From Eledone cirrhosa (taxonomy: Eukaryota): a DNA stretch of 64,000 nt. Location of the stretch: contig OZ024740.1 of the NCBI GenBank assembly GCA_964016885.1, positions 352,036,001 to 352,100,000 of the forward strand, given 5' to 3'. Position 1 is the first letter of the stretch. Every line of letters starts with the position of its first letter. The translations under genes were made by a program, and so were the position numbers. The notes beneath the pieces were generated by a model. The model searched no databases, was not told where the DNA came from, and saw only the letters and a program-made list of their open reading frames with translations. This document shows positions 11,019-32,985 of this stretch, in pieces.

Positions 11019-11144
11019 TATATTGAACTCCTTTAACCATCTTTTGATCTTATATTATGCATACTCCAGTCCCACAAACTGTAGAGTGCTTCTTATCCGA
11101 TATCTGCATTGCTTTATTCTACTACAATAAAACTCACCTCCTAC

Positions 11145-11942
11145 ATATATATATATATATATATATATTTATATATATATATATATATATTTATATATAT
11201 ATATATATATATATATATATATTTATATATATATATATATATATATTTATATATATATATATATATATATATATATATTTATATATATATATATATATAT
11301 ATATATATTTATATATATATATATATATATATATATATATATATATTTATATATATATATATATATATATATATATTTATATATATATATATATATATAT
11401 ATATATTTATATATATATATATATATATATATATATATATATTTATATATATATATATATATAAATATATATATATATATATAAATATATATAAATATAT
11501 ATATATATATATATATATATATATATATAAATATATATATATATATATATATATATATATATATATAATATAAATATATATATAAATATATATATATAAA
11601 TATATATATATAAATATATATATATATATATAAATATATATATATATATATAAATATATATATATAAATATATATATATAAATATATATATATAAATATA
11701 TAAATATATATATATATAAATATATATATATATATATATATATATATATATATATATATATATATAAATATATAAATATATATATATAAATATATATATA
11801 AATATATATATATATATAAATATATATATATAAATATATATATATATATAAATATATATATATATATATATATAAATATATATATATATATAAATATATA
11901 TATATATAAATATATATATATATAAATATATATATATATATA
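11145..11942. repeat. (TA)n array
   Basis: Direct reading. Confidence 0.95.
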
Positions 11943-12040
11943 ACGAAGGAAATGTGGTAAGGAACCAGGTGGACCATAACGCCCCAAAGTACTCAATACT
12001 TAGGGTAGTAGAGTGGGTAATAGGAACAAGTAAGACCCTT
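11943..12040 (-). mobile_element. Short 3'-end fragment of a Penelope-like element between TA arrays
   Basis: CACTCTACTACCCTAAGTATTGAGTAC motif, shared with other TA-embedded fragments. Confidence 0.5.
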
Positions 12041-12209
12041 ATATATATATATATATATATATATATTTATATTAGAAAGTGAGGTTTTTTTTACAAAATG
12101 AAAAATAACCAAGGTGTCCTACACGAGTGGAGGTATAAAGAAAAAGGGATGAAATCGAAAATGCAACTGAAGTCTTATTTTTTAAAAAAATATATATATT
12201 TATTTGGTT

Positions 12210-12247
12210 CCTTTACCGGTTTCGCAGTTCTTCTGCTTTTCAAAAGG
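12210..12247 (-). ncRNA. Minimal hammerhead ribozyme, U3-A8 variant (mirror copy)
   Basis: Reverse complement of 12318-12355. Confidence 0.7.
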
Positions 12248-12317
12248 TGAGTTGAGATGGAGGGTCTGTGGTTTTTCTCACATGTGAGAAAAACCACAGA
12301 CCCTCCATCTCAACTCA

Positions 12318-12355
12318 CCTTTTGAAAAGCAGAAGAACTGCGAAACCGGTAAAGG
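12318..12355 (+). ncRNA. Minimal hammerhead ribozyme, U3-A8 core variant
   Basis: CCTT-TTGAAAA-GCAG(AAGAA)CTGC-GAAA-CCGG-TA-AAGG. Confidence 0.7.
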
Positions 12356-12693
12356 AACCAAATAAATATATATATTTTTTTTTTAAATAAGACTTCAGTT
12401 GCATTTTCGATTTCATACCTTTTTCTTTATATATTTATATATATATATATATATATTTATATATATATATATATATTTATATATATATATTTATATATAT
12501 ATATATATATATTTATATATATATATATATATTTATATATATATATTTATATATATATATATATATTTATATATATATATTTATATATATATATTTATAT
12601 ATATATATTTATATATATATTTATATATATATATATTTATATATATATTTATATATATATATATTTATATATATATATATATATATATATATA

Positions 12694-13623
12694 TGCTCTG
12701 AAAGTACTGTAGCTAGAGTCAGAACTGGTTGGAAAAAGTTCAGAGAGCTTATACCACTATTAGCTGCTAAAGGGTTCTCACTAAAAGTGAAAGGCAGGTT
12801 GTACGATGCCTGCATACGAACAGCAATGCTGCATGGCAGTGAGACCTGGGCATTGTGTGCAGAGGATATACGCAGACTAGAGAGGAACGAAGCTTGCATG
12901 CTCCGCTGGATGTGTAACAGTAATATACGTGAACGGCAAAGCATAAACGAACTAAGGAAAAAATTAGAGATAAGAGGGATCAGATGTTGTTTACTCGAGA
13001 GAAGGCTACGTTGGTATGGACACGTGATGCGCATGAAAGTCGACAGCTGTATAACAAAGTGCAGGGCAATAAAGATAGACGGTAGTCACGGAATAGGCAG
13101 ACCTAGAAAAACCTGGGACGAGCTGATAAACTCCGACATCACACACTTACACCTCTCCAAGACAATGTCACTGGACCGAGACCTTTGGCGGTACTCAGTA
13201 ACAGAGAAGACCCGCCTTACCTAAATATATAGTAAAACCTACTCCAGCCAGTAGGCATCTCTAACAAAATACACCCCGTCCCACCACCACCATCCCCACC
13301 CCATCCACACCACCCCGTTCTATGTAAAGCTATGTTGGTGCCGCGCCATCGAGGCCGAAACAAATGAGATCGTGTAGGTGTCACGACAAAAAAACACACA
13401 GTCCACGCTGTAATGTGGCCGTGTAGGCAACACGGTAAAAACCTCCCAGACCCACACTGTAAATGTGGTTGGTGTTAGGAAGGGCATCCAACTGTAGAAA
13501 ACCTGCCAGACAGTCCTATGCGAGCAAGACAATCACTCTTGCCTCAAGTGGGACTACCCCCGTCCAAACCCATGCAAGCGTGGAACACGGACGTTAAACG
13601 TTGATGATGATGATGATGATGAT
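12694..13623 (+). mobile_element. 5'-truncated RTE-clade LINE: open RT C-terminal frame 12694-13224, 3'UTR, (GAT)n tail
   Basis: Translation [19 protein letters not shown]...MLHGSETW...[12 protein letters not shown]...GRPRKTW is typical of the RTE RT thumb/C-terminal region. Both flanks are (TA)n. Confidence 0.92.
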
Positions 13624-30560: not shown

Positions 30561-31071
30561 GGTATCCTCGCTACCAGCACCACGACAAACCTAGCAGCAA
30601 CATGTCTTAGAACCACTATCGTCATGATAATACTCTGCTACTTTCTCCTCTAAAATCAACTGTTGGTGATTCAAAGTTAGTTATAAAAAAAAAGGTAAAG
30701 GAATGAATGGAAGAGATAATATGAGAAGAGTGGAGGTAAAAGAGACAGGAGATACAGTAAAGTGAAGAAAGAAAGATAGAAAAAGATAACACACTAACCT
30801 ATCTCAAAACAATGTGAAGAGGAGGCATGGTTATAGTGATGTAGGTTGTAACGATGGTGATAACGATGATAAATATGATGATAGTGGTGTAGGTAACAGA
30901 AACAATGCAAAGACTCTTAGCCGGTATTTTAAACACATACTCAAGTAGTTATAGTAAGAAAACATCGATATGAAAACAAGAGAAGACCGGGTGAAAGGGT
31001 GAATGAAGACAGAGAAGAAGAAAAAGAATAACAACAATAAAGAAAGCGAAATTCGCCGCAAATGTTCTCAC

Positions 31072-31123
31072 CTTGTTCATCTGAAGAGAGGGAATTGGCA
31101 CAGCTACAGAATAGTGTCATCAT
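31072..31123 (-). CDS. Candidate coding part of a first exon (MMTLFCSCANSLSSDEQ, phase-1 donor), unidentified gene
   Basis: ATG at 31123 is open to a strong donor AAG|GTGAGA at 31072/31071. It lies in unique CpG-containing sequence. No downstream exon or homology recognised. Confidence 0.3.
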
Positions 31124-31379
31124 TCCATTGGAGAAGCAACTTTCACGCTGCTAATAAGAGCAATTGTTTCCACAACAGGAGTAAGAATAGTAAATGTGGT
31201 GGTCTTCCTCTGGGACTAAGGCATGCAGTCAAAATTCACACCCACTGCCGTTTCTCAGAGAGGCGGAGAGAAAAAGATAGATAGTGCATGAGGAAGAGAG
31301 CGAGGGGGGAGCCAAATAGAGAAAGAGAGTGAGAGTAAACAATGTCAAAACTCCCACTATCAACAAACAAGCCAGACTT

Positions 31380-31520
31380 CTGCTACTCCCACACTTTCGG
31401 TCACGTCCCACCTTCAGTCGAGTAAGCTTTGATTCTAAAGCTATAAAAACGGACTGGCACGGCACTGAGTAAGAGTGTCGGCACCACACCACCGGCACGA
31501 AACGACTCGGCACCGCGGCT
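31380..31520. promoter_or_regulatory. CpG-rich unique patch, possible core promoter
   Basis: Many CpGs in an otherwise CpG-poor window, repeated GGCAC motifs, Inr-like TCAGT on the minus strand near 31467 and TATAAAAA on the plus strand at 31442. Confidence 0.35.
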
Positions 31521-32664
31521 AGAATTTACTAAATGTGACTGAAGGAGAAAAAAAAGAGAAGGAAAAGGATAGACAGGCAGAAAGAGGGAGAGAGAAATAG
31601 AGAGAGAGTTGGAGGGGTGCCAAGCTGAAGTCTACAGTATCCCTATAGGTGTGGTGGTAACGGTGATGGCGATGGTGGCGATTACGTGGAAGAAGTATGT
31701 GTAGTAGTTGATTGTATGTTGATAGTTGTAGATAGAAGCAGATTTCATGCTGTATTGTTTGATGTTGCGTGTGAGCATGGCCATGAAAATGAATAATCAA
31801 ACCGAATATAAATCTCTTACAATGCTGAATGATGCTTGTTGTAGAGGTTTTTAAGGAGCTTCGGTAAAGTTGTAGAAAGAAGAGAAGAGAGAGAAAAAGA
31901 AAACAAGAACAAAAAGACGAAGAAAAATAAATAATTAACTGAACACTTATACAGTTTAGTAGTTATACTGATATTATACAGATATTATATGTTTATAATA
32001 AGGTCTAGCTTTATAGAATATCGATTAAGGGCTGTGGAAAAAAGTTTCAGATTCACATCGAATTACACGCGCTTGTATCTGCTATACATACGTAAACACG
32101 CGCGCGTAAACGTATAATGTACACACGCATGCATATATATATATATATATACACATGCGCGCATACACACACACATACACATGCGCGCATACACACACAT
32201 ATACACGCTCGCATACACACACATATACACGCGCGCATACACACATATACACGCGTGCATACACACATATACATGCGTGCATAATCAGTTTTTCGTTCGC
32301 TTTTCCTTACTTATATATACTCAGCAACTTCACATGCATTGAGTACTACCCTGAGCTACATTCACCCCGGTCTCCAAACGTCAACACTTTATATATATAA
32401 GTGTGTGTGTGTGTGTATACGCTTGAGATTGACAGGCGCGAAAATAAGTGCTCAATACCATAATAGAGATTAATATTTTCGTTATTTAGTCCAAGTTTGA
32501 GTTTTTCCTGTATACTCTCAGGGTCATCAGACAAGACTAAATTTAGAGAGGACGGAGACAGTATATAAAACGCATACCTTCATACACACACACACGTGTG
32601 TTATATATATATATATATTTCCAATTCCAACCCGCCCGTCCCCTCAATCTATCTTATTTCTCAT

Positions 32665-32701
32665 TCTTTCTGATGAAGGACTAGCGTCCGAAACGTTAAG
32701 A
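32665..32701 (+). ncRNA. Minimal hammerhead motif of Penelope type
   Basis: CTGATGA-A-GGAC(TAGC)GTCC-GAAA-CG-TT with a palindromic ACGT stem III. Stem I is weak. Confidence 0.6.
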
Positions 32702-32857
32702 CCCTCTTCCTGCTATATCAAGCGTTAACCTAATATATCCTTTTCATATACTGTACCGATTGTGTTGTTATTTCTGTTTACTTTTTACACACACACACAC
32801 ATATATATATATATATATATATATATATATATATATATATATATATATATATATATA

Positions 32858-32985
32858 TCCCTGGTTCAATCAAGGGAAACCACAGTAAGTAAGGTACTCA
32901 ATACATAGTAGAGTATATACAATATTTAATATAGAAATGGCTTCTACAGGACTAGAACAGTTTCATTCGAAAGAAACCATCATAT
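32858..32985 (-). mobile_element. Family P3 fragment between TA arrays
   Basis: Matches 25323-25440 (GAATGAAACTGTTCTAGTCCTGTAGAAGCCATTTCTATATT...ATACTCTACTATGTATTGAGTAC). Confidence 0.65.

What the first reader, a model, noticed from the sequence alone, without database searches (positions are those of the whole stretch)
11061..32916. Conserved 3'-terminal ACTC...GAGT(A/G)C hairpin shared by many divergent TA-embedded fragments
Seen: the motif (A/C)ACTC-N11-18-GAGT(A/G)C recurs about 30-60 nt from a microsatellite junction at 11061-11089 (+), 11989-12015 (-), 13767-13795 (-), 24888-24910 (-), 25384-25406 (+), 32317-32346 (+), 32448-32470 (-) and 32894-32916 (-). A further remnant lies at 52901-52941 (-). 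The surrounding sequences are otherwise quite different, and in several cases the motif lies downstream of a hammerhead-like motif. Inference: a cis-acting RT-recognition or priming signal of a (TA)n-targeting Penelope-like lineage.
Basis: partly seen in the sequence, partly recalled or inferred. Interest (0 to 1): 0.7.

Follow-up and report, generated by a model that had tools for sequence, protein, structure and literature searches.

The report
Conserved tail hairpin of Hydra retrotransposons
Eight short, decayed pieces sitting in TA repeats share a small bulged hairpin motif that also follows the self-cutting ribozyme of protein-coding Hydra-type Penelope retrotransposons from other animals, and it likely marks where the element's enzyme grips its RNA and starts copying, which would make a long-unexplained end structure of these elements testable.

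Summary
The motif is real: ACTC-N11-18-GAGT(A/G)C matches 7 loci against 0.76 matches expected. Six of the 8 named sites match exactly; two carry one substitution. It is a bulged hairpin, RCTC + 3-5 bp inner stem + 2-nt 3' bulge + GAGY + RC, with compensatory changes, but weakly stable. It lies 28-55 nt from the element end in about 5 lineages. Three copies have a full hammerhead upstream and three a remnant. The window has no Penelope ORF. A pattern holding no ribozyme or ORF information retrieved two contigs where the hairpin lies 51-53 nt after a hammerhead cleavage site behind a Hydra-clade RT-GIY-YIG ORF, the spacing of window family A. Published Hydra consensi carry it unremarked: 3 of 6 full, 2 variant; one begins with it. 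Opposite-facing sister arms stop 4-7 nt before it, at a TA-like stretch. So it sits in the Penelope 'tail', likely the start of the next tandem unit. A role in RT binding or priming is inferred, not shown. Known element kind, apparently undescribed cis-element.

The parts
11063..11089 (+). Bulged hairpin, family A copy 1 (ACTC/GAGT, inner CAGT/ACTG, TA bulge, GC); 55-nt tail 11090-11144, then (TA)n
10950..11020 (+). Type I hammerhead, canonical core at 10958, predicted cleavage nucleotide 11012, 51 nt before the hairpin
10730..10893 (-). Inverted tailless arm of the A1 insertion, with its own hammerhead (core 10830); runs into (TA)n 4 nt before the point where the hairpin would start
13767..13793 (-). 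Bulged hairpin, family A copy 2; 55-nt tail 13712-13766
13838..13908 (-). Type I hammerhead, core at 13900, predicted cleavage nucleotide 13846, 53 nt before the hairpin
14293..14455 (+). Opposite-facing tailless arm of family A (hammerhead core 14363); runs into (TA)n 4 nt before the hairpin position
11989..12014 (-). Bulged hairpin, lineage C (inner TACT/AGTA, TT bulge); 46-nt tail 11943-11988
12134..12431 (.). Inverted pair upstream of hairpin C; each arm holds a hammerhead with a U3-A8 core (cores 12243- and 12322+); predicted cleavage nucleotide 12214 is 200 nt before the hairpin, across an internal (TA)n at 12040-12072
   Evidence: U3-A8 covariation per PMC3088659
24888..24909 (-). Hairpin F, directly after a (TA)n(CA)n run; 54-nt tail related to family B; essentially a tail-only fragment
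25386..25406 (+). Hairpin B1 (one G>T break in the basal stem); 35-nt tail, then a SINE-like insertion
25258..25378 (.). Inverted pair of B1, joined inside a hammerhead remnant (read by eye); the left arm runs into TA repeats 7 nt before the hairpin position
32319..32346 (+). Hairpin G (inner GC/GC pairs, long loop); 43-nt tail; only about 35 nt of unique sequence upstream
32448..32469 (-). Hairpin E (TCTC/GAGC, first pair broken); 28-nt tail; tail-to-tail with G; decayed hammerhead core at 32530
32894..32914 (-). Hairpin B2; 35-nt tail 32859-32893, then (TA)n; hammerhead remnant upstream (read by eye)
52901..52941 (-). B-like remnant: 5' half of the hairpin and a tail word, 3' half lost; abuts (TA)n
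   Evidence: not detected by the covariance model

Best explanation
The eight sites share a bulged hairpin motif 28-55 nt from a TA-repeat junction, and they are likely 5'-truncated ends of Hydra-clade Penelope-like retrotransposons in which the hairpin would be the RNA site that the element's RT-endonuclease protein binds to set where copying starts. Shown: the motif, its covariation, its position 51-53 nt after the predicted hammerhead cleavage site in family A and in two ORF-bearing Hydra loci, and that opposite-facing arms stop at a TA-like stretch 4-7 nt 5' of it. Inferred: the tandem transcript reads [hairpin - 5'UTR - ORF - 3'UTR - hammerhead - UA-rich stretch] and then the hairpin of the next unit. 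The protein binds the hairpin, the GIY-YIG domain nicks genomic (TA)n, and the freed TA-rich 3' end primes either on the UA-rich stretch just 5' of the hairpin (tailless end, hairpin not copied) or 28-55 nt 3' of it (tailed end). Early termination and fold-back or template switching would give the short inverted pairs. The window copies are dead by-products with no ORF.
For: Enrichment. Compensatory changes in 3 of 3 inner pairs among window copies; 4 of 7 pairs, score 0.349 against 0.168, 0 of 500 shuffles, with L007 and L010 added and A2 dropped. 2 of 10 loci from a scan whose pattern held only TATAT plus the hairpin have the order ORF - hammerhead - TATA - hairpin, with cleavage-to-hairpin 51 and 53 nt against 51 and 53 nt in window family A. 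Of 68 long relatives of the L010 protein, 68 have DK[TS], 67 CxCx5C, 48 RWK and 0 CX2-5CxxC, the Hydra marks of PMC8557442. In that paper's six Hydra consensi, read by eye, the full motif is in 3, a one-mismatch form in 1 and a partial form in 1; two end at TA repeats just after the hammerhead and one of these begins with the hairpin. 3 of 4 inverted pairs in the window (2 families) diverge 4, 4 and 7 nt before ACTC. L007 carries an inverted copy of hairpin 3' part plus tail that ends at the same base, 2059. In the anole Poseidon element RT starts internally in a stem-loop and the tail lies between two start sites (PMC11167929).
Against: No binding or priming was measured. The window hairpins fold weakly: only 2 of 8 have z below -2, and the constrained structure is positive in energy for F, B1 and E. 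The count of pairs with two-sided change in the window alone is not above shuffles (134 of 500), and the tool warns that related sequences can beat such shuffles. L007 and L010 were selected by a pattern that fixes most letters, and several of the 8 bacterial hits also pair. The fourth inverted pair (C) stops about 120 nt before the hairpin. The published Octopus Hydra consensus shows no complete hairpin. No Hydra ORF remnant was found in the window, so clade membership of the window pieces rests on non-coding features. The anole element primes without homology to the target, unlike the TA-annealing step proposed here.
Confidence: 0.62

Rival explanations
1. The motif acts as DNA: a hairpin or cruciform in the cDNA or donor copy that the GIY-YIG endonuclease recognises when it resolves the intermediate, so the tail is a cleavage product and not a priming product.
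For: PMC8557442 ascribes the tail to EN-mediated resolution. PMC11167929 reports earlier work in which the Drosophila Penelope tail was needed for EN recognition. Covariation alone does not tell RNA from DNA.
Against: Sense-strand G-U pairs occur in 2 cells against 1 A-C cell in the inner stem, a weak lean to RNA. In the one reconstituted PLE the tail ends match RT start sites.
Confidence: 0.15
2. The hairpin is a 5'-end element of the unit (promoter-proximal, translation or stability signal for the RNA left after hammerhead cleavage) and appears in tails only because tails are read-through into the next tandem unit.
For: Hydra-1_Ajap begins with the hairpin and Hydra-1_Crog with a similar one; it would lie 35-53 nt from the 5' end of a hammerhead-cut monomer.
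Against: Does not explain why tailless arms stop 4-7 nt before it or why tails end within 28-55 nt of it in all eight copies.
Confidence: 0.15
3. The tailless arms are secondary deletions between the internal TA-like stretch and the flanking (TA)n, so their end points say nothing about priming; the hairpin is conserved for another, unknown RNA role.
For: The junctions are TA microhomologies inside unstable microsatellites; the C pair ends at another TTTATA.
Against: [quoted passage not shown]
Confidence: 0.06
4. The pieces are Helitron-like or MITE ends, or chance palindromes picked near microsatellites.
For: Sub-terminal hairpins and AT-rich targets are Helitron features (recalled); ACTC/GAGT palindromes occur by chance, e.g. 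54628 and 57325.
Against: None of the eight tails ends in CTRR and the hairpin is 28-55 nt from the end; hammerheads lie upstream; the motif is attached to PLE ORFs elsewhere.
Confidence: 0.02

Closest known systems
Hydra clade of Penelope-like elements (Craig et al. 2021, PMC8557442)
   Same: (TA)n insertion, hammerhead near the 3' end, inverted 5'-truncated arms, one-sided tail; the same hairpin is present in the paper's own consensus sequences.
   Different: The paper does not describe the hairpin (0 hits for 'hairpin' or 'palindrom'; 'stem' only for hammerhead descriptors). Window families are not among its consensi: 5 of 6 window 12-mers had no match, the sixth matched Hydra-1_Obim. Window copies have no ORF.
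Poseidon element PAc of Anolis (Frangieh et al. 2024, PMC11167929)
   Same: Internal RT initiation at a stem-loop downstream of the hammerhead; tail equals the stretch between two start sites; binding region lies in the start of the next unit.
   Different: Other clade; AC-rich stem-loop 111-118 nt inside the ORF; priming without target homology; no cross-family conserved motif reported in the text read. Here the hairpin is non-coding, conserved across phyla and abuts a TA-like stretch.
Naiad PLEs (also TA-targeting, present in cephalopods)
   Same: (TA)n preference, inverted arms, tails.
   Different: No canonical hammerhead. By eye, six 3' ends and six 5' ends shown lack the full motif; two Octopus Naiads have GCTC-N8-TT-GAGC without inner stem or RC about 175 nt from the 5' end.
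Non-LTR retrozymes (10.64898/2026.07.22.740005)
   Same: Short non-coding, hammerhead-bearing derivatives of PLE pLTRs.
   Different: Retrozymes are head-to-tail tandem arrays; these are dispersed single or inverted fragments, and that paper has no mention of hairpin, stem or tail.
3' stem-loops of LINE/SINE pairs and the R2 3'UTR (recalled)
   Same: Short structured cis-signal bound by the RT to select its template.
   Different: Those lie inside the copied sequence near the RNA 3' end; this one is left uncopied in tailless ends.

Membership tests
Hydra-clade PLE | Single ORF with RT and C-terminal GIY-YIG, RWK, DKT, CxCX5C linker, no CX2-5CxxC | tested here: inconclusive
   No ORF remnant in the window (best tblastn E=0.084, best profile E=1.4). 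Met for the hairpin-bearing locus L010 and its relatives (CxCX5C in L010; motif counts in 68 relatives; Atlas neighbours with RVT_1, GIY-YIG, HTH_animal). Pfam gave no significant hit.
Hydra-clade PLE | Canonical type I hammerhead near the 3' end | tested here: met
   4 canonical cores against 0 in 100 shuffles and 2 U3-A8 cores against 0.05; upstream of 3 of 8 hairpins, remnants upstream of 3 more. Cleavage not assayed.
Hydra-clade PLE | Insertion into (TA)n | tested here: met
   7 of 8 reach (TA)4 within 25-62 nt against 4.1% background.
Hydra-clade PLE | 5' truncation, inverted arms and a tail at one end only | tested here: met
   Four inverted pairs, each with one tailed and one tailless arm. 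Tails are 28-55 nt after the hairpin, so hairpin plus tail exceeds the 30-40 bp quoted for other PLEs.
Hydra-clade PLE | RT phylogeny places it in the clade | not tested
   No window protein to place; no reference Hydra protein was available as a stored sequence.
Naiad PLE | Lack of canonical hammerhead | tested here: not met
   Canonical hammerheads are present in family A.
Non-LTR retrozyme | Head-to-tail tandem units, each with a hammerhead | tested here: not met
   No such array in tandem-repeat or self-BLAST output.
Helitron | Hairpin about 10-12 nt from a CTRR 3' end (recalled) | tested here: not met
   Tails 28-55 nt, none ending in CTRR.
Known Rfam RNA family | Match at gathering score | tested here: not met
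   No listed match reaches its gathering score; none of the 150 rows shown is a hammerhead or a specific match to the hairpin (31 lower rows not shown).

The most novel reading that the evidence does not exclude
Hydra PLEs use a telomerase-like arrangement: a clade-wide RCTC/GAGY bulged hairpin anchors the RT and forms the boundary of a degenerate (UA)n alignment stretch just 5' of it, which base-pairs with the nicked (TA)n target. One RNA element would then explain microsatellite targeting, the unit boundary and the one-sided tail, and it is conserved from corals to echinoderms, copepods and this host.
Probability: 0.35. Interest if true: 0.75.

Novelty: new variant of a known kind. Interest (0 to 1): 0.52.

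Why it matters
How Penelope-like elements choose their RNA and why copies have a tail at one end only is still open; only one PLE has been reconstituted (PMC11167929). A short, covarying, clade-wide hairpin at the tailed/tailless boundary gives a precise target for mutagenesis in the retroelement group closest to telomerase. It is also a practical marker: it assigns ORF-less TA-embedded fragments to the Hydra clade and fixes element boundaries that are hard to see in microsatellites. The fragments in this window are themselves ordinary dead transposon debris.

Tried and rejected
Rfam scan: only microsatellite- and palindrome-driven miRNA hits below gathering score. Covariance model from the 8 copies, filters off: it recovers only its 8 training copies; the next hit has E=0.26, so 33417-, 57317- and others were not accepted. 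The perfect hairpin at 54628 folds best (z -6.7) but lacks bulge, RC and TA junction and was rejected. Relaxed descriptor (one outer mismatch) is barely above chance, 6 against 2.19, 9 of 300; the strict one (4 against 0.06) was drawn up from the data. Search for Penelope coding remnants by motif scan, tblastn and profile: none. 8 of 10 genome-contig hits are bacterial sequence with no hammerhead visible in the 160 nt printed upstream and were treated as chance; the model scored three of them 18-20 bits against 21.6 for L007, so it does not separate them well. Literature searches for a described Hydra or PLE hairpin and word searches in three papers found none. The Terminon paper was not held, Repbase records were not available, and Fig. 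S2 of PMC11167929 is an image without readable sequence (its other supplements were not read); any of these may bear on novelty. The host genome, metagenome contigs and viral contigs stayed unchecked. Published consensi were compared by eye only.
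Full report
Setting. The window is AT-rich, apparently animal DNA with very long (TA)n arrays, RTE-type RT fragments, SINE-like repeats and one N run at 6355-6554. An octopus host is my guess from recalled repeat types; no call established it.

Observation. All nine places are present. Six of eight match ACTC-N11-18-GAGT(A/G)C exactly, 25384 has GATTAC, 32448 has TCTC...GAGCAC, and 52901 keeps only the 5' half. On the microsatellite-masked window the motif gives 8 matches at 7 loci against a mean of 0.76 (maximum 6, 0 of 300 shuffles). 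Tails to the first TA-like junction are 28-55 nt. Seven of eight reach (TA)4 within 25-62 nt against 4.1% of background positions; the eighth is interrupted by a SINE-like insertion. Flank comparison gives about five lineages: A (two copies), B (two copies, with F and the remnant related), C, G and E. A covariance model found no further copy in the window.

Structure. The shared feature is more than two palindromic words. It is RCTC, an inner stem of 3-5 bp with a variable loop, a 2-nt bulge (TT or TA) on the 3' side, GAGY, then an unpaired RC. Among the eight window copies 89.1% of cells pair (shuffles 80.6%), and all three inner pairs show two-sided changes; the covariation score is 0.317 against 0.167 (3 of 500), but the number of such pairs is not above shuffles (134 of 500). 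With A2 dropped and two outside loci added, 4 of 7 pairs covary and the score is 0.349 against 0.168 (0 of 500). These shuffles ignore relatedness. Stability is low: z is below -2 in 2 of 8, as one would expect for decayed copies or a protein-stabilised element.

Context in the window. Canonical type I hammerheads lie in both arms of both family A insertions (4 against 0 in 100 shuffles); the predicted cleavage site is 51 and 53 nt before the hairpin. Lineage C has a hammerhead with a U3-A8 core in both arms, 200 nt upstream; this covariation is known and active (PMC3088659, passages). B1, B2 and E show remnants by eye. Four insertions are inverted pairs with one tailed and one tailless arm. 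In three (A1, A2, B1; two families) the tailless arm matches the tailed arm up to 4, 4 and 7 nt before ACTC and then becomes TA repeat; in C it stops about 120 nt earlier. Seven of nine sites have a TA-like run of 6 nt or more ending within 6 nt of the hairpin, against 11% background (sites not independent). No Penelope coding remnant was found.

Outside evidence. A scan of genome contigs with TATAT plus the hairpin returned 10 loci. Eight are bacterial sequence that I treat as chance. Two short contigs, L007 (JAAESD010000571.1) and L010 (JAAESD010000473.1), which I infer to be eukaryotic contamination of a bacterial assembly, read ORF - 3'UTR - hammerhead - TATA - hairpin. The pattern held no ribozyme or ORF information, yet cleavage-to-hairpin is 51 and 53 nt and the minimum-energy fold is the proposed bulged hairpin in both. 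The L010 protein has YRDD, CxCX5C and a C-terminal YVG region; its Atlas neighbours carry RVT_1, GIY-YIG and HTH_animal; of 68 relatives of 660 aa or more among the 120 listed, 68 have DK[TS], 67 CxCX5C, 48 RWK and none CX2-5CxxC. These are the Hydra marks in PMC8557442 (section 11). L007 also has an inverted copy of the hairpin's 3' part and tail at its truncated 5' end, ending at the same base (2007-2059 against 129-77).

Published Hydra consensi (PMC8557442 supplement parts 52-53, read by eye). Hydra-2_Amil (coral) and Hydra-2_Ajap (sea cucumber) end hammerhead - GCTC/GAGC hairpin - short tail. Hydra-1_Crog (copepod) has a one-mismatch form with the CAGT/ACTG inner stem of window family A, and a GCCC/GGGC form at its 5' start. 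Hydra-1_Amil has a partial form. Hydra-1_Ajap and Hydra-1_Obim end at TA repeats just after the hammerhead; Hydra-1_Ajap begins with the full hairpin, while Hydra-1_Obim shows no complete one. So 3 of 6 full, 2 variant, 1 absent. The twelve Naiad ends shown lack the full motif.

Mechanism. Shown: motif, covariation, position and end pattern. Inferred: the hairpin is the first feature of the element unit, so a tail is read-through into the next tandem unit. The protein likely binds the hairpin, nicks (TA)n, and primes either on the UA-rich stretch just 5' of it or 28-55 nt 3' of it. This parallels the anole Poseidon element, where RT starts internally in a stem-loop and the tail lies between two start sites (PMC11167929, parts 1-2 of 4 read), but differs in being non-coding, conserved across phyla and next to target-like sequence. 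I put 0.9 on Hydra-clade origin and about 0.62 on the binding/priming role. Rivals are a DNA signal for the endonuclease, a 5'-end expression or stability element, and secondary deletion at TA microhomologies.

Novelty. The elements are a known kind. I found no description of the hairpin: searches (listings and abstract starts), word searches in PMC8557442, PMC4209133 (passages) and 10.64898/2026.07.22.740005 (part 1 of 5 and passages). PMC13282606 (part 1 of 3) was read for background only. The Terminon paper was not held, Repbase was not available and a supplementary figure of PMC11167929 was unreadable, so prior mention cannot be excluded. Verdict: new variant of a known kind, interest 0.52.

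Noticed in passing
window 12237-12243 (-) and 12322-12328 (+): Hammerhead with a compensatory U3-A8 core in both arms of an inverted pair; canonical CUGANGA descriptors would miss it.
   Followed up: partly
window 32654-32786 (+) and 21904-22039 (-): A further family with a minimal hammerhead (core 32670, palindromic helix III) that ends in (CA)n(TA)n without the hairpin; its T-rich end resembles the region upstream of B2 (about 82% over 46-55 nt).
   Followed up: partly
window 32300-33040: Four PLE-like end fragments (G, E, the minimal-hammerhead copy, B2) are packed into about 750 bp, tail-to-tail across shared microsatellites, suggesting repeated insertion into one TA hotspot.
   Followed up: partly
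window 53115-53128 (+): A 14-nt word identical to the 3' end of the published Hydra-1_Obim consensus, followed by a GT repeat, about 170 nt from the 52901 remnant; may be a tailless arm or chance.
   Followed up: partly
window 12695-13600, 15381-16205, 63501-64000, 3131-3556: 5'-truncated RTE-type LINE ends with RT C-terminal frames and (GAT)n tails; 3131-3556 and 13176-13601 are 99% identical in opposite orientation.
   Followed up: no
window 22738-23081, 25447-25788, 52319-52641: SINE-like family (92-96% identical) with a weak tRNA match (E=0.11) at one end and the RTE-type 3' end at the other.
   Followed up: no
window 14029-14222: GA-rich near-perfect palindrome of about 190 bp between the two arms of the A2 insertion.
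   Followed up: no
window 54628-54651: Perfect 9-bp hairpin ACTCTATGC/GCATAGAGT (z -6.7) at the junction of repeat fragments, not near (TA)n.
   Followed up: partly
window 33417-33450 (-): ACTC-N12-GAGTAG about 60 nt from a TA array; weak model score (E=1.8), possibly a very decayed copy.
   Followed up: partly
L007 and L010 (JAAESD010000571.1, JAAESD010000473.1): Two short contigs of one bacterial genome assembly consist largely of Hydra-type Penelope retrotransposons, which points to eukaryotic contamination; their hammerheads closely resemble that listed for Penelope-1A_NV.
   Followed up: yes
window 28480-30580, 57399-57755, 59459-60020: ACC-rich and GGT-rich minisatellites (30-60 bp units) and a 41-bp tandem array.
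   Followed up: no
tails of the window copies: A CACC/TACC-like word recurs in several otherwise unrelated tails (A, C, F, B1, G); not tested statistically.
   Followed up: no
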